From UHGV virus genome UHGV-0370164: 21,078 nt of DNA. One strand, given 5' to 3'. Position 1 is the first letter of the stretch. Every line of letters starts with the position of its first letter. This document shows, piece after piece, positions 6,183 to 17,560 of the stretch. This DNA comes from a virus. The position numbers were made by a program, and so were the translations under genes. Under the pieces are notes generated by a model. The model was not told where the DNA came from. It ran no database searches and saw nothing but the letters and a program-made list of their open reading frames with translations.

Positions 6183-9019
6183 GTGCGTTTGCATGGAGCT
6201 GGAATGAACCACGGCCAGCCATTGATCCGGCCAGATTTACGGAGCGCAGGCAGGAAACTGAAACCGACCTGCAACGCGCCATCCGTTACTACCTTGAGGC
6301 AAACAAAAGGGCACAGGAAGAACAGGAAGCGAAGGAAGAAGCCTTTTTCGCACAATCCACCGTGGGTAAAAAACTCATGGCATCCCTTGAGGAAGCCGGA
6401 CAGCGTGAAAAGCTGGCACAAAGCATCATCAGCAAGCGTCAGGCAACAGAACAAGACCCGGTGGCCCGTGCTTTTGCCACACTGAAGGTGCTTCCCGTTT
6501 ATCTGCGTGAACCTCTGAGCCGCCACCTCTCTTTTCTGCGCAAGAAGCAGGAAGCCGATCGTCAGAAAGGCAAAAAGAGCTGGCAGGCTGAACGCTACGC
6601 GCGCGGAACCCTGCGCAAAATATTCGAACGTCTGGACCGCACCGACAGCCGCTGGCTGACACCGGGCTATCGCTCCCTTGCCGGACGCGAACGCCTGGAC
6701 GATTTGCTTTACCTGCCGCAGCTCAACAAACACCAGATACAGACGCTGGCCACCATGACGGCGGCGATGTTCAGTGGCACTTTTGAAAAACTCTGCGATG
6801 GCTTTGGCGCGACCGATGGCGAGCTGACCATGGATGTAACGCTGAAGGCGTATCAGATGCTGGCCCGCATGGCGTTACACCTGCACGCTATGCCTCCACA
6901 TTATGACGCTCTGACAACAGACAAAGACCGGAGGAATGAACCGGACACGGAGCTGCTGCCGGGCGCAATCCTTCGCCTGACCTGTGCGGAATGGTGGAAA
7001 CGCAAACTGTGGCTGTTACGTTGCGAGTGGAGAGAAGAACAACTCCGCGCCGCCTGTCTGGTTTCCAGAAAAACATCACCCTATCTGAGCCAGGACGCGT
7101 TAAGCGAGTTTCGCGCACAGCGCGAGAAAACACGCGATTTCCTGAAAAGTTTCATGCTGGAAAACGAAGACGGGTTCACGATTGATCTCGAGACAGTGTA
7201 TTACGCGGGAGTAAGTAACCCGATTCACCGTAAGGCAGAAATGATGGCCACCATGAAGGGGCTGGAACTTCTGGCCGAAGCCCGTGGCGACAGAGCGGTG
7301 TTTCTGACTGTCACCTGCCCGTCAAAATACCACGCCACAACAGAGAACGGTCATCCGAATCCCAAATGGAACGGGGCCACCATGCGCGACTCCAGCGATT
7401 ACCTGGTTAACACGTTTTTTGCGGCGGTCCGCAAGAAACTGAACCGCGACGGCCTGCGCTGGTATGGCATCCGCACGGTGGAGCCTCACCATGACGGCAC
7501 CGTGCACTGGCATATGATGGTCTTTGCTCATCCGGAAGAAATCGACACCATTGTGTCCCACACCCGCGATATTGCCATTCAGGAAGACCGCCACGAGCTG
7601 GGCAATGATATTACTCCGCGCTTTAAGGTGGAGTATGTCGACGGCTCAAAAGGCACGCCAACCAGCTACATCGCCACCTACATCGGAAAGAACCTGGACA
7701 GCCGCGCCGTGGATGGCATCGACCCGAAAACGGGCAAGCCACGCGTTGACCACGAAACCGGAAAATCAATGGCCGAGAGCGTGGAACGCGCCATCGGCTG
7801 GGCACGCCTTCACCGGGTCCGCCAGTTCCAGTTCTTTGGCATCCCCTCCCGTCAGGTATGGCGTGAACTCCGCCGCCTTGCCAGCCAGATGGCACGCAAC
7901 CCGGAAGGCCCACAACGGCTGAAGGATGATGCAATGGATGCGGTACTCGCTGCCGCTGATGCCGGATGTTTTGCCACCTACATTGAAAAACAGGGTGGCG
8001 TACTTGTTCCGCGCAAGGACTACCTGATTCGCACAGCCTACGACCTCGCAGATGAGCTGAACGATTACGGCGAACAGAGTGTACAGATTTACGGGATCTG
8101 GTCGCCATTCATCGGGGAATCCTCCCGTGTGTGCACGCATCCGGATAACTGGAAGCTGGTAAGACGTAAACCGGAAGCGGAAGACAGCGCCCGCGAAAAT
8201 GGTTTTGACCTTCAGGGCGGCCCTGCCGCCCCTTGGACTCGTGGCAATAACTGTCCCCGTGTACAGGAAACAGGCAACAACGGGACAGAACAGCCGGAAG
8301 AACGGCCAGCACCGTGGCCGCAGCTTCCTGACGGCGTTGAAGTAAATGAATGGATGCGCTCACTGAAACGGCACGAACGCCGGGCGCTGATGCGTTCGCT
8401 TCGTGACAAACAGGCAAAAAACAGCAGCGATGAAATGCAGAACTGGACACAGAGCCGCAAACAGCAGCGGCCTTTGCCTGATAACCACGAGTTACTCGCT
8501 AAAGAATGGCGGGAGTCTGCTGAATCTCTCGGCCTGCATATCGGTGAACAACAGATGCAGCACCTGTTACGGGGCGGCAGTCTGTACGTTGACGGCAGCA
8601 TCATTGCACCGCAGGGATTTGAAATTGTACGCAAACCGGATACCCGCCCGGACAGCCGAATCACGCAGCTCTGGCAGCGTCTGAGCCGTAATCATGGCGT
8701 AAGCAGCACGGAGATCCGCCATAACCCGGTCGCCAGCTATCTGGCACAGCTGGGGGCATCAGACCCTGAAGCCGCCGCACGCCTGGCATCCACACTTCAG
8801 CAGGACCAGAACACCATGAAAACACCCGTTACCGTGCTTTCTGACATGCTGCGCGCCATCCGCGACGCAGAGCACGCACAGAGAATCAGTGAAACCACTG
8901 AACGCGCCAGCCGCAAAGCAGACCTGCTGCGGGGTGGCCTGACCAGTGGAAACAAAAAACAGACAGAAACGGGACTCACGAATCCCGTAAATGAGCAAAA
9001 AACGCGCAGCGATATATGA
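6179..9019 (+). CDS. Rolling-circle replication initiator, P2 gpA-like
   Basis: 946 aa from the ATG at 6179; HUH-type motif (GTVHWHMMVF) and paired tyrosines (TSYIATYIGKN) typical of the gpA family; Q/R-rich C-terminal tail. Confidence 0.85.
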   Translation: MSAFAWSWNEPRPAIDPARFTERRQETETDLQRAIRYYLEANKRAQEEQEAKEEAFFAQSTVGKKLMASLEEAGQREKLAQSIISKRQATEQDPVARAFATLKVLPVYLREPLSRHLSFLRKKQEADRQKGKKSWQAERYARGTLRKIFERLDRTDSRWLTPGYRSLAGRERLDDLLYLPQLNKHQIQTLATMTAAMFSGTFEKLCDGFGATDGELTMDVTLKAYQMLARMALHLHAMPPHYDALTTDKDRRNEPDTELLPGAILRLTCAEWWKRKLWLLRCEWREEQLRAACLVSRKTSPYLSQDALSEFRAQREKTRDFLKSFMLENEDGFTIDLETVYYAGVSNPIHRKAEMMATMKGLELLAEARGDRAVFLTVTCPSKYHATTENGHPNPKWNGATMRDSSDYLVNTFFAAVRKKLNRDGLRWYGIRTVEPHHDGTVHWHMMVFAHPEEIDTIVSHTRDIAIQEDRHELGNDITPRFKVEYVDGSKGTPTSYIATYIGKNLDSRAVDGIDPKTGKPRVDHETGKSMAESVERAIGWARLHRVRQFQFFGIPSRQVWRELRRLASQMARNPEGPQRLKDDAMDAVLAAADAGCFATYIEKQGGVLVPRKDYLIRTAYDLADELNDYGEQSVQIYGIWSPFIGESSRVCTHPDNWKLVRRKPEAEDSARENGFDLQGGPAAPWTRGNNCPRVQETGNNGTEQPEERPAPWPQLPDGVEVNEWMRSLKRHERRALMRSLRDKQAKNSSDEMQNWTQSRKQQRPLPDNHELLAKEWRESAESLGLHIGEQQMQHLLRGGSLYVDGSIIAPQGFEIVRKPDTRPDSRITQLWQRLSRNHGVSSTEIRHNPVASYLAQLGASDPEAAARLASTLQQDQNTMKTPVTVLSDMLRAIRDAEHAQRISETTERASRKADLLRGGLTSGNKKQTETGLTNPVNEQKTRSDI

Positions 9020-9061
9020 AGCGCGCACAAAACAGGCAAAAACGGGATTTCAGAATCCCGT
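8969..9061. promoter_or_regulatory. Paired 20-bp palindromes flanking the gpA stop; candidate parC-like centromere/operator
   Basis: ACGGGACT-CACG-AATCCCGT (8969-8988) and ACGGGATT-TCAG-AATCCCGT (9042-9061), 73 bp apart, each in a similar ~28-bp context, directly upstream of parM. Confidence 0.4.
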
Positions 9062-9095
9062 AAACGATTAATTAATCAACATAAGGAAAACCGAC

Positions 9096-10055
9096 ATGAA
9101 AATTTACATCGACGACGGCTCCACCAACATCAAGCTGGCATGGACTGAGAACGGCGAACGCCGCAACGCCATCAGCCCGAACAGCTTCAAGTCGGAATGG
9201 TCTGCGCCGTTCGGTGGCTCGCAGCCTGCTAACTACATGCTTGATGGCGTGCGCTATGGTTTTGATCCGGTCAGCGATCGCTTTGTCCAGACGACCGACA
9301 CGCAATACCAGTACAGCGATGTGAATGTCATTGCCATTCATCACGCGCTGGTCAAATCAGACATCACGCCACAGGAAGTGGATGTGGTTGTTACCCTGCC
9401 ACTGAGCGAATATTTCGACACAAACGCACAGCCGGACATGGCCAACATCAACCGCAAAAAAGCGAACGTCATGCGCCCGGTGGAGTACCAGAACGGCGAA
9501 GCATTCACTATCCGTAACGTACGGGTTATGCCTGAATCCATTCCGGCTGGCTTTAAAGCACTGGCTGACATGAGTCCGTTTGAATCCCTGCTGATTGTGG
9601 ATTTGGGCGGAACCACGCTGGATGTGGCAAAGGTTCAGGGGCAACTGGCAGGTATCAGCCAGGTGTTTTGCGATCCACACGTAGGCGTTTCTCTTATGGC
9701 CGATGCCGTACTGTCGGTGATGGCCACTAACGGTATGCGCACCAGTCACCACATCGCCAATACCATTATCGAACATCGCCATAATGAAGCCTGGCTGCGC
9801 CAGCACATCCACAATGACGCGCATTACGCCAGCCTGATGGCGGTTATTCGTGAAAAGGAAGAAACACTGAAACAACGCGTGATCCGCGCGCTGGCGGTTT
9901 TTTCGGGTTACGGGCGGGTGATGGTTGTCGGTGGCGGGGCGGAGATTGTGGCACCCGCTATCCGCGAAGCCTGCGGAGTTAATGCGACTTTCATCGCGGA
10001 CGGGGTGCCACAGTTTGCTCTGGTTAATGGGCTGTACGCAATGGACAAGGAGTAA
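9096..10055 (+). CDS. parM: ParM/StbA-family actin-like partition ATPase
   Basis: 319 aa; matches plasmid R1 ParM as recalled along its length (IDDGSTNIKL, ISPNSFK, YSDVNV, VMPESIPAG, DLGGTTLD, GVSL, GGGAE, LVNG); AAGGAAAA Shine-Dalgarno. Confidence 0.9.
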   Translation: MKIYIDDGSTNIKLAWTENGERRNAISPNSFKSEWSAPFGGSQPANYMLDGVRYGFDPVSDRFVQTTDTQYQYSDVNVIAIHHALVKSDITPQEVDVVVTLPLSEYFDTNAQPDMANINRKKANVMRPVEYQNGEAFTIRNVRVMPESIPAGFKALADMSPFESLLIVDLGGTTLDVAKVQGQLAGISQVFCDPHVGVSLMADAVLSVMATNGMRTSHHIANTIIEHRHNEAWLRQHIHNDAHYASLMAVIREKEETLKQRVIRALAVFSGYGRVMVVGGGAEIVAPAIREACGVNATFIADGVPQFALVNGLYAMDKE

Positions 10056-10059
10056 ACCA

Positions 10060-10371
10060 ATGACGACACCAACCAGACGGATAAGTTTCTATCTGAAGCC
10101 CGCCGCCGTCAAGAACGAAGGAGAAGCATGCGCCTGGCTGGACAGCCTTACACCAGAAGCCCGCAAAAGCGGCCAACGCGTGGCTTTTCTGGCCGGGCTG
10201 GCACTTCTGAAGACGAATCCGGCAGAGGCTTACCGACTGGCCGCATGGGCTGATGATGAGATGTTACCTGTGACACAAATCAGCTCAAAAAAGTTTGAAG
10301 CACAGTCTGCACCAGTGGCTAAGATAACCAGCCAGATGGCTGGGAATATCCGGGCGTTATTTCCTGAGTAA
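10060..10371 (+). CDS. parR: ParR-like partition adaptor/repressor
   Basis: 103 aa from the ATG 4 nt after the parM stop; N-terminal RRISFYLKP...AC.WLDSL...ER...LAGLAL and C-terminal IRALFPE resemble R1 ParR as recalled. Confidence 0.8.
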   Translation: MTTPTRRISFYLKPAAVKNEGEACAWLDSLTPEARKSGQRVAFLAGLALLKTNPAEAYRLAAWADDEMLPVTQISSKKFEAQSAPVAKITSQMAGNIRALFPE

Positions 10372-10499
10372 AAGCATCTGCGCGAAAAATGCTCACGTTT
10401 ATAGAGACAGTATCATTCCATTTGGCACACTTACTTCAATAATCGATCTGTTAAACAAATAGATTGTCTATTATCTATCGATTAAAACGATCAATTATC

Positions 10500-10527
10500 T
10501 TGACAGTAATGTGCCTTTTTGTAAGAT
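10500..10527 (+). promoter_or_regulatory. Near-consensus sigma70 promoter
   Basis: TTGACA (10500-10505), 16-nt spacer, TAAGAT (10522-10527); imperfect palindrome AATAGAT...ATCTAT just upstream. Confidence 0.45.
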
Positions 10528-10633
10528 CGTTCGCATTGTGAGCGACAAGATAATTGCGCGGCATTGTCCATGCAAAACGCCCCAATAGCAGCAACTATTG
10601 GGGCGTAAAACTCGGTCGGACTCACTTAACCTG

Positions 10634-10719
10634 ATATGCGTGCCTTCCGAAGTAAATCAAAATGTGCGTCGTATATTTTATTGCTTACACGCACCTCTGT
10701 AAAGGCACGCATATTTTTC
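10634..10719 (+). terminator. Large stem-loop with U5 tract in the leader (attenuator/terminator or small RNA 3' end)
   Basis: Perfect 13-bp inverted repeat ATATGCGTGCCTT (10634-10646) / AAGGCACGCATAT (10702-10714) enclosing an inner GTGCGT/ACGCAC hairpin, followed by TTTTT (10715-10719). A 12-bp-stem hairpin lies at 10577-10606. Confidence 0.4.
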
Positions 10720-10735
10720 CTATGAGGTAAATAAA

Positions 10736-11005
10736 GTGCGGGCTAAAACAGGTATTTGCAAGAACCCTCATCGTTATAATCCAACATTTCTGTCTCTCCC
10801 TGAATATCAAGGACAAGAAGGTCGGCACAAATGCGCTGCCTGTGCTTTTGAGCTAGGCATAAAAGATGCGCTTGAAGGACGCGCTATGGCTCAGAATGAT
10901 TTAGTTTTAGCTAACATTCCGTTTAGCCAGGCTGGAACTGTAAGGCACAGAGATGCCTATGAAGCATATGTTCGTGGTTGGCGATTAATAAACAGCAACA
11001 ATTGA
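10736..11005 (+). CDS. Small Cys/His-containing protein, unknown function
   Basis: 89 aa; GTG start with GAGG Shine-Dalgarno 8 nt upstream; CKNPH...HKCAAC suggests metal binding; followed by a terminator. Confidence 0.5.
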   Translation: MRAKTGICKNPHRYNPTFLSLPEYQGQEGRHKCAACAFELGIKDALEGRAMAQNDLVLANIPFSQAGTVRHRDAYEAYVRGWRLINSNN

Positions 11006-11014
11006 TACTTTTGA

Positions 11015-11037
11015 AGCGCCGATAAGGCGCTTTTTTT
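11015..11037 (+). terminator. Intrinsic terminator
   Basis: AGCGCC / GGCGCT stem with GATAA loop followed by TTTTTTT, 10 nt after the stop at 11005. Confidence 0.7.
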
Positions 11038-11490
11038 GTTTGCACGATAGTGCACAAGTTTGCACAATTTTTTTGAACGACTTTTTGTACTTCCGGCCCG
11101 CGTGGTGGCTGGATCCGTCAAGGATCCGTACGTGCACAAAAAAACGCGTTTTTTCTGCGCGCAGGTGACGGGGGAACAGCCCGCGTTTCAGGGGGTAAAT
11201 AGCATCCCCTGAACGATGTCGCAGCGACACAACAGAATGGCTGTATTTCTCACGCTGAGCGTGAAAAAGACGTGAGGGCTTTTGATTTGATGGGTGGCAG
11301 ATAAGGCCGTCAAAATCGCACTGAGGCGGCGAGAACATGCAGTCAACGCGGTGGGATTGCGTAAGAGTCTGACCGCCGATGATGACAATAAGCAGAAAAG
11401 CGTCGTGAAATTATCTGATTGATACAGGAGCTGGAGAGTCGGGGCATAAATTTTTTATGCCCCGGCGAAGCAGCAGACAAGCGAAGCGCG

Positions 11491-12537
11491 TCAGGATGTG
11501 GGCTGGGTATCTAGCAGTGCGTAAGGGTTAAAGCGGATCACCTCTTCGCCAAGCCAGTCATTGATGTGCTTCATGGCCTCCATGACGGGCATCAGCTCGT
11601 TAATTGCGTAAACCCGCGCGGCCTTCTCCACATCACCAAACGCACTTTTTTCGCCCGGCATCGCCCCCATCAGTTGCGGCGGAACGCGGTGCGCAGCCAG
11701 CACATCATCACGGGATGCCGCCTTAACATTCATGAACTCATCCTTTGCAGTGATCTGCTGGAACGGCAAAATTTGCACACCTTCTTTGCCCCCGTTGGGC
11801 GCATGGATGAGTACGTTTTTAAACGCACCACCACCACGCGCGCCCTGTAACGTTTCTTTCAGGGAGTCCATGCTTTCGCGGTTTACCTGCGCTGCACCGA
11901 TGTAGATGATGCACCCGGCGTGGGATCCGTTGTCGTAGTACAGTTTTCTGAACATGTCCGCCGAATGAGAAAGGCTGGCCGAGAGTAATGCGCCAAGATA
12001 TTCCGGCATGCCGTAGATTTCCTGGTTAATATCCGGATTCATCAGGTGGCACACTTTGCCAGGGCGAAACTGGAACGCGTCCTTGCCATCCTGCACATAC
12101 CACCATGATTCAAGATCGCTTCCGCGTCGCATGTATTTCGCCAGGGCGTGCCGTAATTTAAGCGGTTCGCCGAGCATATTGCTTCTAAGCTCAAGGAATG
12201 CGTTACCGAACACAAACCAGTCCAGCGCCAGCGCCGAGAAATCCTGCCGGGAAAGCAGCGGGTGCGGGATGTAGCAACCGAGTAATACATTGCGCTTAAA
12301 GTAAAGCGCAGACTGATGCCAGGACGTTTGCCGGGCTGCTCTTGCCAGACCGTACCAGTCCACCGGGGTTTCATACCACCGTCCGTTATCAGCACAGTAC
12401 ATATTGTCCAGCAGGTCATGCCCGGTCAGGCGATAAGGACCATCAAATGTGAATGCACTGAGCGATGATTCTTTCCTGAGCGCATCAGCGAGATCAATGC
12501 GTGAACTCATGCGCACTTTTTTATTTTTTCTGCTCAT
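11491..12537 (-). CDS. Portal protein, P2 gpQ-like
   Basis: 348 aa, right size for P2 Q; directly downstream of and overlapping the terminase gene on the same strand. Called from context and size. Confidence 0.85.
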   Translation of the reverse strand: MSRKNKKVRMSSRIDLADALRKESSLSAFTFDGPYRLTGHDLLDNMYCADNGRWYETPVDWYGLARAARQTSWHQSALYFKRNVLLGCYIPHPLLSRQDFSALALDWFVFGNAFLELRSNMLGEPLKLRHALAKYMRRGSDLESWWYVQDGKDAFQFRPGKVCHLMNPDINQEIYGMPEYLGALLSASLSHSADMFRKLYYDNGSHAGCIIYIGAAQVNRESMDSLKETLQGARGGGAFKNVLIHAPNGGKEGVQILPFQQITAKDEFMNVKAASRDDVLAAHRVPPQLMGAMPGEKSAFGDVEKAARVYAINELMPVMEAMKHINDWLGEEVIRFNPYALLDTQPTS

Positions 12538-16982: not shown

Positions 16983-17560
16983 TGACATTCAGAATGAGTG
17001 AACACTCACGGACCATAAAAATTTATAATCTACTGACCGGAACCAATGAGTTTATTGGTGAAGGTGATGCATACATTCCACCTCATACAGGTCTGCCTGC
17101 AAACAGTACCGATATTGCCCCGCCAGATATTCCGGCTGGCTTCGTGGCCGTTTTCAACAGTGATGAGGCATCGTGGCATCTCGTTGAAGACCATCGGGGT
17201 AAAACGGTTTATGACGTGGCATCAGGGGACTCGTTATTTATTTCTGAACTCGGTCCATTACCGGAAAATGTTACCTGGTTGTCGCCGTATGGAGAGTATC
17301 AGAAGTGGAACGGCACATCCTGGGTGAAAGATGCAGAAGCAGAAAAACTGTTTCGGATAAGGGAGGCGGAAGAAACAAAAAACAGCCTGATGCAGGTAGC
17401 CAGCGAGCATATTGCGCCACTTCAGGATGCCGTAGATTTGGATATTGCAACGGAGGAAGAGGCATCGTTACTGGCTGCATGGAAGACATACCGGGTATTG
17501 TTGAATCGTGTTAATACAGCGGTAGCAGCGGATGTTGAGTGGCCAGTCGCCCCACAATAA
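16982..17560 (+). CDS. Tail fibre assembly chaperone, gpG/Tfa-like
   Basis: 192 aa; start overlaps the H stop (TAATG); position and size fit a fibre assembly protein. Confidence 0.8.

What the first reader, a model, noticed from the sequence alone, without database searches (positions are those of the whole stretch)
8969..9061. Two near-identical 20-bp palindromes bracketing the gpA stop, upstream of parM
ACGGGACT-CACG-AATCCCGT and ACGGGATT-TCAG-AATCCCGT lie 73 bp apart (about 7 helical turns), with a possible promoter (TGAGCA...TATATG) and a CGCGC/GCGCG hairpin between them. Operators flanking a promoter is the typical layout of a ParR-controlled centromere. On the minus strand each is followed by a T-run, so they could instead be terminators.
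Basis: seen in the sequence. Interest (0 to 1): 0.5.

Follow-up and report, generated by a model that had tools for sequence, protein, structure and literature searches.

The report
Likely centromere of a prophage ParMR system
Two matching 20-bp palindromes just upstream of the actin-like segregation gene parM in a P2-like E. coli prophage are most likely where the adaptor protein ParR binds (the centromere/operator parC), a known kind of element that has not been described for this very common prophage.

Summary
ACGGGACTCACGAATCCCGT (8969-8988) and ACGGGATTTCAGAATCCCGT (9042-9061) lie 73 bp apart, are far beyond chance, and are the cores of a 42-nt direct repeat. They are the only copies in the window and in the whole phage P88 genome.

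The window is a P88-like (Xuanwuvirus) P2-type prophage with gpA, then parM, then parR. ParR is homologous to pB171 ParR (PDB 2JD3).

Relatives with ParM only about 62% identical (Hafnia, Plesiomonas) have lost the hairpin stems and the T-runs. They still keep GGG-N10-CCC dyads at the same two positions, about -125 and -52 from the parM ATG. The element stays with parM when the upstream gene changes. The pB171 locus likewise has two directly repeated small palindromes upstream of parM.

The best reading is a two-site parC/operator bound by ParR (confidence about 0.6, inferred and not shown). No sigma-70 promoter between the sites is supported. The minus-strand terminator reading is not conserved, and neighbouring cargo genes carry their own terminators. 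No covariation supports an RNA hairpin.

It is a new member of a known kind. The context is notable: an integrated prophage found in 24% of complete E. coli genomes.

The parts
6197..9019 (+). gpA replication endonuclease (940 aa). Its last roughly 17 codons read through P1 and the central dyad.
   Evidence: Pfam Phage_GPA E 1e-129. The P88 annotation maps to these coordinates.
8953..8994 (.). Direct-repeat copy 1 (42 nt), which contains P1.
   Evidence: the repeat finder family D1, 81% identity between the copies, spacing 73.
8969..8988 (.). Palindrome P1, ACGGGACT-CACG-AATCCCGT. Its GGG is at -125 from the parM ATG. Proposed distal ParR site.
   Evidence: The GG/CC core is invariant in 74 distinct relatives. 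A GGG-N10-CCC dyad sits at the same position in Hafnia and Plesiomonas.
9003..9025 (.). Central GC-rich dyad, CGCGC-N13-GCGCG, midway between P1 and P2. It encloses the gpA stop codon (9017-9019). Its role is unknown.
   Evidence: On the + strand the two inner pairs are always kept (CG, UG or UA; GC or GU), but the test is not significant.
9026..9067 (.). Direct-repeat copy 2 (42 nt), which contains P2.
9042..9061 (.). Palindrome P2, ACGGGATT-TCAG-AATCCCGT. Its GGG is at -52 from the parM ATG. Proposed proximal ParR site.
9066..9077 (.). Perfect 12-bp palindrome GATTAATTAATC between P2 and the ribosome-binding site (AAGGA, 9083-9087). Extremely conserved. It could be part of the parM leader or a weak -10 region.
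   Evidence: Variability profile of about 97 distinct sequences. ATTAATCAA is also present in Hafnia and Plesiomonas.
9096..10055 (+). parM, actin-like segregation ATPase (319 aa).
   Evidence: Pfam StbA_N 1e-80 and ParM_N 3e-68. It is 39% identical to pB171 ParM and about 50% identical to plasmid ParMs.
10060..10371 (+). parR, centromere-binding adaptor (103 aa).
   Evidence: Pfam Plasmid_stab_B 2e-23. A profile of phage ParRs hits PDB 2JD3 (pB171 ParR/StbB) at E 2.5e-14. N-terminal RRISFYL and the C-terminal tail NIRALFPE are conserved.

Best explanation
P1 and P2 are the two binding sites of the prophage's own ParR protein. Together they form the centromere-like site parC, and probably the autoregulatory operator, of a type II ParMRC partition cassette carried by a P88-like P2-type prophage. 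Proposed mechanism (inferred): ParR is a ribbon-helix-helix dimer homologous to pB171 ParR, and it binds each 18-20-bp dyad (CGGGAyT-N4-AATCCCG) as a dimer of dimers. The two sites are 73 bp apart, about 7 helical turns, so they lie on the same face of A-tract-rich and probably curved DNA. Bound ParR can therefore assemble into one complex that presents its conserved C-terminal tails (NIRALFPE) to the growing end of ParM filaments. These filaments would move or position extrachromosomal phage DNA after infection, excision or during replication. The upstream ORF (gpA here) simply reads into the element until it meets a stop codon, which is why the sites 'bracket' the gpA stop. Shown: the anatomy, the homology of ParM and ParR, the conservation and positional constancy of the dyads, and their linkage to parM. 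Inferred: ParR binding, stoichiometry, looping, repression and the biological role.
For: (1) The parM and parR genes immediately downstream are intact and conserved, and ParR is homologous to pB171 ParR of solved structure. (2) P1 and P2 are the only repeated elements around parMR and the only copies in the window and in the full P88 genome. (3) In Hafnia and Plesiomonas P2-like prophages (ParM 62% identical) the flanking DNA is otherwise unalignable. Even so, GGG-N10-CCC dyads sit at -128/-55 and -131/-59, against -125/-52 here, and 0 of 20000 shuffles per lineage give such a pair. In Plesiomonas the tool independently finds a 26-nt direct repeat with spacing 72. (4) The hairpin stems and T-runs are not kept in those lineages. 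What is conserved is therefore the pair of outer half-sites, as expected for a double-stranded protein site. (5) Linkage to parM rather than to gpA. In L104 an unrelated 155-aa ORF joins about 15 nt 5' of P1 and the whole P1-P2-parM block is retained. In the Serratia/Enterobacter group the corresponding repeat element lies directly upstream of parM even where a methylase and a small ORF separate it from gpA, or where another gene precedes it. (6) Among 74 distinct close variants the GG/CC cores never change, while the loops and outer pairs vary without compensation. All E. coli ParR variants keep an identical N-terminal strand, MTTPTRRISFYLKPA. [quoted passage not shown] (8) A-tracts across 8946-9075 are phased at 10.5 bp (p about 0.01). 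R1 parC is likewise curved (PMC2241845).
Against: There is no binding or genetic data for this system. Only two sites are visible, whereas the R1 and pSK41 segrosomes use 4-10 repeats. Relatives in the Serratia/Enterobacter group use a different layout: a 19-nt inverted repeat with a 28-nt spacer plus a GCCGTTTAAACGGC palindrome. The recognised motif is therefore not uniform. No promoter is predicted nearby, so an operator role is uncertain. In the E. coli lineage both palindromes are also good minus-strand terminator look-alikes, and Serratia shows three such hairpins upstream of parM. Natural variants exist with a clean 73-bp deletion leaving one site (L063), or with P2 and parMR replaced (L237), so the pair is dispensable for a resident prophage. 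P1 lies in coding sequence, which could contribute to its conservation.
Confidence: 0.6

Rival explanations
1. Tandem intrinsic terminators for minus-strand (antisense) transcripts. Each palindrome would form an 8-bp hairpin followed by a U-run on the minus-strand RNA. This would stop transcription coming from the variable cargo region or the late operon before it enters gpA.
For: Both are called terminator-like on the minus strand. Minus-strand hairpins fold at about -10 kcal/mol, z about -2.6. The A-runs 5' of each palindrome on the + strand are largely conserved in E. coli relatives. Serratia relatives also show three minus-strand terminator-like hairpins upstream of parM.
Against: In Hafnia and Plesiomonas the homologous positions have neither stable hairpins (z from 0 to -2) nor T-runs, and no terminators are called, yet the GGG/CCC half-sites persist. 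In 14 of 74 and 40 of 74 distinct variants, P2 changes that are G.U on the + strand would be C.A mismatches on the minus strand. Minus-strand cargo genes next to parR carry their own strong terminators between cargo and parR. A terminator placed after antisense transcription has already crossed parR and parM is an odd design. No minus-strand gene abuts parR in this window.
Confidence: 0.12
2. Plus-strand mRNA structures. The hairpins at the gpA/parM junction would act on the early-operon transcript, for example in processing, in 3'-end stabilisation of the gpA message, or in control of parM translation.
For: Plus-strand hairpins are stable (-8.7 and -10.7 kcal/mol, z -2.9 and -3.4). The variable positions of P2 and the two inner pairs of the central dyad stay paired on the + strand through G.U or one compensated U-A.
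Against: No pair in P1 or P2 shows a double (compensatory) change. 21 of 74 distinct sequences, including this window, carry a C.A mismatch in P1 on the + strand. Overall covariation is not above the shuffles (71 of 500). Hairpins are lost in Hafnia and Plesiomonas. There is no Rfam family here. P2 ends 22 nt before the ribosome-binding site and does not sequester it.
Confidence: 0.07
3. A non-functional scar: a 73-bp duplication or recombination junction at the boundary between the replication module and the exchangeable cargo region, with no function of its own.
For: The palindromes are part of a 42-nt direct repeat. Copy 2 read in the gpA frame would also end an ORF (TGFQNPVND*), and one natural variant has exactly collapsed the repeat (L063). 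Module breakpoints occur just 5' of P1 (L104) and just 3' of the gpA stop (L237).
Against: A neutral duplication should decay. Instead the same two-dyad layout with 72-74-bp spacing and fixed distance to parM is kept across lineages whose surrounding sequence has diverged beyond alignment. Within E. coli the GG/CC cores are invariant while neighbouring bases vary.
Confidence: 0.08
4. Binding sites for a different protein, such as the C-terminal extension of gpA, another early phage protein or a host factor, and not for ParR.
For: The sites overlap the end of the ORF upstream, and the P88-type gpA has an unusual C-terminal extension of about 180 aa. ParR binding has not been tested.
Against: The block is retained when the upstream ORF is replaced by an unrelated one (L104). 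The element co-occurs with parMR in every lineage examined. The nearest characterised ParR uses the same two-palindrome layout.
Confidence: 0.08

Closest known systems
par1 (ParMRC) of E. coli plasmid pB171: ParR/StbB (PDB 2JD3) and its parC repeats
   Same: ParR is homologous (profile E 2.5e-14) and ParM is 39% identical. Upstream of parM there are just two directly repeated short palindromes (CTCAAATTGAGTA / TACTCAGATTGAGTA) an integral number of helical turns apart (41 bp), with no long iteron array. [quoted passage not shown]
   Different: The site sequence is unrelated (CTCAA/TTGAG against CGGGAT/ATCCCG). The spacing is 41 bp against 73 bp. The pB171 sites lie in a shared intergenic control region of a plasmid with a second par locus. 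Here the distal site lies inside the 3' end of a phage replication gene and the replicon is an integrating phage. My equating of the repeats found in L236 with the published ParR sites is an inference.
parC of plasmid R1 (ParMRC prototype)
   Same: It lies upstream of parM, is bound by a ribbon-helix-helix ParR, comprises two ParR-binding blocks separated by unbound DNA, and has intrinsic curvature (PMC2241845, PMC5016525).
   Different: R1 has 2 x 5 direct 11-bp iterons flanking a clear promoter over 159 bp. Plasmid ParMs about 50% identical to this one show that layout. This locus has only two dyads, no iteron array and no recognisable promoter between them.
srpMRC of SXT/R391 integrative conjugative elements
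   Same: It is a type II partition system carried by a chromosomally integrated mobile element. [quoted passage not shown]
   Different: SrpR has no detectable similarity to ParR. The element is an ICE and not a phage. Binding and plasmid stabilisation were shown experimentally there and not here.
AlpAC/alpS of the Corynebacterium glutamicum prophage CGP3
   Same: An integrated prophage encodes an actin-like filament protein and a DNA-binding adaptor that recognises sites near its own operon. It is implicated in transport and replication of phage DNA (PMC4446434, PMC5539076).
   Different: The proteins are unrelated, the host is Gram-positive and the phage type is different. There is no sequence relationship between the sites.

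Membership tests
Type II (ParMRC) partition locus | Actin-like ATPase ParM encoded in the locus | tested here: met
   ORF 9096-10055: Pfam StbA_N E 1e-80 and ParM C-terminal domain E 3e-68, both full length. 39-52% identity to plasmid ParMs.
Type II (ParMRC) partition locus | Small adaptor ParR encoded directly downstream of parM, with an N-terminal ribbon-helix-helix DNA-binding region and a C-terminal ParM-binding tail | tested here: met
   ORF 10060-10371: Pfam Plasmid_stab_B E 2e-23. The profile hits pB171 ParR 2JD3 at E 2.5e-14. The N-terminal RRISFYL strand motif and the C-terminal N..LFP tail are conserved. The fold itself is not confirmed: the AF2 monomer model is poor (pLDDT 57).
Type II (ParMRC) partition locus | Cis-acting parC: repeated sequences upstream of parM | tested here: met
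   The only repeats near parMR are P1 and P2 at -127..-108 and -54..-35. They are conserved in position across lineages.
Type II (ParMRC) partition locus | ParR binds parC specifically and cooperatively | not testable with these tools
   Needs EMSA, footprinting or ChIP. Only indirect comparative support is available here.
Type II (ParMRC) partition locus | The cassette stabilises an unstable replicon or moves DNA in vivo | not testable with these tools
   Needs a plasmid-stability assay or imaging.
R1-type parC (iteron arrays flanking the par promoter) | Arrays of at least 4-10 direct 10-11-bp iterons | tested here: not met
   There are no tandem or iterated repeats in 8500-11600 and only two dyads. 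Plasmid relatives do show such arrays.
R1-type parC (iteron arrays flanking the par promoter) | Sigma-70 promoter located between the two repeat blocks | tested here: not met
   No promoter-like site lies between P1 and P2 in the window or in Hafnia, Plesiomonas or Serratia relatives. TGAGCA-N15-TATATG has a non-canonical spacer, and its -10 varies among close relatives. The scan is crude, so a weak promoter is not excluded.
Intrinsic (Rho-independent) terminator, minus strand | GC-rich hairpin immediately followed by a U-run on the transcribed strand | tested here: met
   Both palindromes qualify in this window.
Intrinsic (Rho-independent) terminator, minus strand | Hairpin and U-run conserved in relatives, with compensatory stem changes on that strand | tested here: not met
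   Lost in Hafnia and Plesiomonas. No compensatory changes are seen, and frequent P2 variants would be C.A mismatches on the minus strand.
Intrinsic (Rho-independent) terminator, minus strand | A transcript that needs terminating there | tested here: inconclusive
   No minus-strand gene abuts parR in the window. In relatives, minus-strand cargo genes have their own terminators. No transcript data are available.

The most novel reading that the evidence does not exclude
P88-like P2-type phages integrate into the chromosome and sit in about a quarter of complete E. coli genomes. They may use a plasmid-style actin (ParM) machine, with a minimal two-palindrome centromere fused to the 3' end of the replication gene, to position or segregate extrachromosomal phage genomes. 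This could happen during lytic rolling-circle replication or in a transient plasmid-like state after infection or excision. That would make active DNA partition part of the life cycle of an integrating phage, using a ParR that reads dyad-symmetric sites rather than iteron arrays.
Probability: 0.25. Interest if true: 0.65.

Novelty: new member of a known kind. Interest (0 to 1): 0.4.

Why it matters
ParMRC systems are textbook plasmid-partition machines. Here one sits, apparently intact and under selection, in an integrating P2-like prophage. The region is present in 1304 of 5426 complete E. coli genomes, almost always on the chromosome, and related cassettes occur in Hafnia, Plesiomonas, Serratia and Enterobacter prophages. 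I found no paper describing it. Pinning down the cis site gives an immediate experimental handle (a 130-bp fragment and two 20-bp sites to mutate). With it one can ask what an actin-like segregation system does for a phage that does not live as a plasmid. It also adds a second example, after pB171, of a two-site, dyad-symmetric parC. If the sites turned out to be antisense terminators instead, the finding would be routine.

Tried and rejected
- **Further copies of the motif:** none in the window or in the whole P88 genome.
- **Alternative centromere, such as iteron arrays near parMR or downstream of parR:** none.
- **Sigma-70 promoter between or after the sites:** none called in the window or in relatives.
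- **RNA family search of the whole window:** only an unrelated IS009 hit.
- **Covariation test of the three hairpins on 74 distinct sequences:** no support for P1 or P2, and weak, non-significant support for the central dyad.
- **Single-sequence PDB search with ParR:** no hit. The profile search succeeded.
- **AlphaFold2 of ParR:** The second gave a poor monomer model (pLDDT 57), so no fold search was run.
- **ParR/site co-variation within E. coli:** not possible, because every ParR variant keeps the same N-terminus.
- **More intermediate lineages.** Genome contigs gave only relatives at 97-99% or about 50%. Viral contigs gave none for the Hafnia query and, for the Plesiomonas query, one 53%-identical locus on a contig already held as L115. 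The metagenome scan gave only the E. coli type and plasmid-type iteron loci.
- **gpA C-terminal search in phages:** only the same 14 P88-like records, so no phage with a P88-type gpA lacking parMR was available for comparison. One such E. coli genome was found later (L237).
- **Three literature leads on prophage ParM were false hits,** matching author names or references only.
- **Møller-Jensen 2007 (PMC2034672):** not held.
Full report
**1. Observation**

- P1 is 8969-8988, ACGGGACT-CACG-AATCCCGT.
- P2 is 9042-9061, ACGGGATT-TCAG-AATCCCGT.
- They are 73 bp apart start to start.

A degenerate search finds them and nothing comparable elsewhere in the 21-kb window: 6 strand-hits against 0.25 expected, and 0 of 100 shuffles reach that number. 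They are the cores of a longer 42-nt direct repeat (8953-8994 and 9026-9067, 81% identical). A CGCGC/GCGCG dyad (9003-9007 / 9021-9025) lies midway and encloses the gpA stop codon (9017-9019). On the minus strand both palindromes are followed by T-rich runs and are flagged as terminator-like. The suggested promoter TGAGCA...TATATG has a 15-nt spacer and is not called.

**2. Context**

The window is a P88-like (genus Xuanwuvirus, Peduoviridae) P2-type prophage, 96-98% identical over this stretch to 14 phage records. The gene order is as follows:

| Feature | Coordinates | Size |
|---|---|---|
| gpA | 6197-9019 | 940 aa |
| parM | 9096-10055 | 319 aa |
| parR | 10060-10371 | 103 aa |
| variable cargo region | after parR | - |
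| portal and terminase | after the cargo region, minus strand | - |

ParM matches both Pfam ParM domains over their full length. ParR matches Plasmid_stab_B. A profile of phage ParRs hits the solved pB171 ParR (2JD3, 'StbB') at E 2.5e-14.

The region occurs in 1304 of 5426 complete E. coli genomes, with 1441 chromosomal places against 2 on plasmids. This is therefore an integrated prophage carrying a plasmid-type partition cassette. I found no paper that describes it, and the P88 genome paper does not mention partition.

**3. Comparative evidence**

*(a) Distant relatives keep the sites but not the hairpins.*
- P2-like prophages of Hafnia (L022) and Plesiomonas (L025) have gpA (plus a separate small ORF in Hafnia), then parM, parR and portal. 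Their ParM is about 62% identical.
- Their DNA upstream of parM is otherwise unalignable with E. coli. Even so, each has two GGG-N10-CCC dyads at -128/-55 and -131/-59 from the parM ATG, against -125/-52 here.
- The background density of the motif is 0.25 per kb. In 20000 shuffles of each 200-nt upstream region no such pair 68-78 bp apart arose.
- In Plesiomonas the repeat finder independently reports a 26-nt direct repeat with spacing 72.
- In these lineages the inner stem bases are not complementary, folding is no better than in shuffles, there is no T-run, and no terminator is called.
- What selection has kept is therefore the pair of outer half-sites, their spacing and their position. That is the signature of a double-stranded protein-binding site.

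*(b) The element goes with parM.*
- In L104 a shorter gpA is followed by an unrelated 155-aa ORF that joins the E. coli sequence about 15 nt 5' of P1. It reads through P1 to the same stop, and everything from P1 to parM is retained.
- In a second clade (Serratia, Enterobacter ludwigii and metagenomic contigs; ParM 53-58% identical, ParR 133 aa), the space upstream of parM holds a different but equally placed element. It is a 19-nt inverted repeat, GGGAACGAAATAGAAAAAT...ATTTTTCTrTTTCGTTCCC (-118 to -52), plus the palindrome GCCGTTTAAACGGC at -47 to -34.
- There the element sits directly before parM even where a methylase and a small ORF separate parM from gpA, or where another gene precedes it.

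*(c) Close variants.*
- Among 74 distinct E. coli-type sequences, the GG/CC cores of both palindromes never change.
- The loops and outer pairs vary freely, and no pair shows a compensatory double change.
- 21 of 74 sequences, including this window, carry a C.A mismatch in P1 on the + strand.
- The frequent P2 variants are G.U on the + strand and would be C.A on the minus strand. No single RNA strand explains both.
- All E. coli ParR variants are mosaic in the middle but share the identical N-terminus MTTPTRRISFYLKPA and the tail NIRALFPE.

*(d) Natural rearrangements.*
- L063 has a clean 73-bp deletion between the repeats. It leaves one palindrome, and gpA then ends ...TGFKNPVTD*.
- L237 has P2 and parMR replaced by an ead/Ea22-like gene, with the breakpoint right after the gpA stop.
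- The pair is thus a recombinogenic direct repeat and is dispensable for a resident prophage.

**4. Comparison with known centromeres**

- Plasmid ParMs about 50% identical to this one have the classic R1-type parC: 11-bp iterons in arrays flanking a TTGACA/TATAAT promoter (PMC2241845).
- This locus has no such array.
- The pB171-type locus, encoding the solved ParR, has two directly repeated palindromes of about 15 bp (CTCAAATTGAGTA / TACTCAGATTGAGTA). They are 41 bp apart, at -69 and -28 from parM.
[quoted passage not shown] Equating those with the repeats I found is my inference.
- The P88-type P1/P2 pair fits this minimal, dyad-containing class of parC.

**5. Mechanism proposed**

- Ribbon-helix-helix ParR dimers bind each dyad, probably as a dimer of dimers as in pSK41 and pB171 (PMC5016525, PMC9426499).
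- The 73-bp spacing is about 7.0 turns. Together with A-tracts phased at 10.5 bp (p about 0.01), it places both sites on one face of bent DNA. One ParR complex can then form and capture ParM filament ends through the conserved ParR tail.
- Because no promoter is recognisable, parMR may be transcribed with gpA from the early promoter. An operator role is possible but unsupported.
- The very conserved GATTAATTAATC...AAGGA leader could hide a weak promoter whose -35 would overlap P2.
- All binding steps are inferred.

**6. Rivals**

| Rival | Assessment | Confidence |
|---|---|---|
| Minus-strand terminators | Valid on this sequence. Not conserved in Hafnia and Plesiomonas, contradicted by P2 variants, and unnecessary because minus-strand cargo genes carry their own terminators. 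Serratia does show terminator-like hairpins upstream of parM, which keeps the idea alive. | 0.12 |
| Plus-strand mRNA structure | No covariation, and a common mismatch in P1. | 0.07 |
| Neutral duplication scar | Contradicted by cross-lineage constancy. | 0.08 |
| Site for another protein | Contradicted by L104 and by constant co-occurrence with parMR. | 0.08 |

**7. Verdict**

The 'promoter between operators' detail is not supported, and the layout is of the pB171 type and not the R1 type. It is a new member of a known kind. Interest is moderate, mainly because the host element is an integrating phage that is very common in E. coli and whose partition cassette appears unstudied.

Noticed in passing
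window 9066-9077 (and on to the RBS at 9083-9087): A perfect 12-bp palindrome GATTAATTAATC lies between P2 and the parM ribosome-binding site. It is invariant in about 97 distinct E. coli-type sequences and is more conserved than the parM wobble positions. The ATTAATCAA part is also kept in Hafnia and Plesiomonas. It could be a weak -10 or leader element, or a further protein site.
   Followed up: partly
window 9003-9025: The central CGCGC-N13-GCGCG dyad encloses the gpA stop. Its two inner pairs stay paired on the + strand in all 74 distinct variants (CG/UG/UA and GC/GU), but the test is not significant. Other lineages have different small GC-rich dyads at the same midpoint.
   Followed up: partly
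L026, L027, L028, L031, L114, L115 (-118 to -34 from parM): Serratia/Enterobacter-type P2-like prophages carry a different upstream element. It is a 19-nt inverted repeat, GGGAACGAAATAGAAAAAT / ATTTTTCTrTTTCGTTCCC, with a 28-nt spacer, plus the palindrome GCCGTTTAAACGGC. L027 shows a compensated GGGAAC/GTTCCC to AGGAAC/GTTCCT change. The left arm shares GCAAAAACGGGA with the left flank of E. coli P2.
   Followed up: partly
window 6197-9019; L022 2453-2956; L104 1957-2424: The P88-type gpA (940 aa) has a C-terminal extension of about 180 aa that has no match in phages outside the group. In Hafnia a separate 167-aa ORF occupies that position. In L104 an unrelated 155-aa ORF with CxxC...CxxC motifs replaces it.
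   Followed up: no
L063 (IMG/VR 2657245439_000011) and L237 (E. coli CUVET19-1704 chromosome): These are natural variants. L063 has a clean 73-bp deletion between the repeats that leaves one palindrome. L237 has P2 and parMR replaced by a frameshifted ead/Ea22-like gene, with the breakpoint right after the gpA stop.
   Followed up: yes
window 10060-10371 and proteins P0121-P0204: E. coli prophage ParR proteins are mosaic. The N-terminus (MTTPTRRISFYLKPA) and the C-terminal tail (NIRALFPE) are invariant, but the central part ranges from 53 to 98% identity, even though the partnered ParM proteins are about 98% identical.
   Followed up: partly
window 10372-11490: The variable region after parR has divergent promoter-like sites (10500-10527 on the + strand, 10703-10675 on the - strand), a 12-bp-stem hairpin (10577-10606), a 13-nt inverted repeat (10634-10646 / 10702-10714), an 89-aa ORF with no family match (10736-11005) and a + strand terminator (11013-11033).
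   Followed up: no
window 17325-17523 (+): Full-length Rfam hit to IS009 (RF02111), 192 bits against a gathering score of 117.
   Followed up: no
window 8946-9075: A-tracts on the + strand are phased at 10.5 bp (p about 0.01 against shuffles). Similar phasing (10.3-10.4 bp) occurs in the Serratia/Enterobacter group but not in Hafnia or Plesiomonas. This suggests intrinsic curvature of the region.
   Followed up: partly
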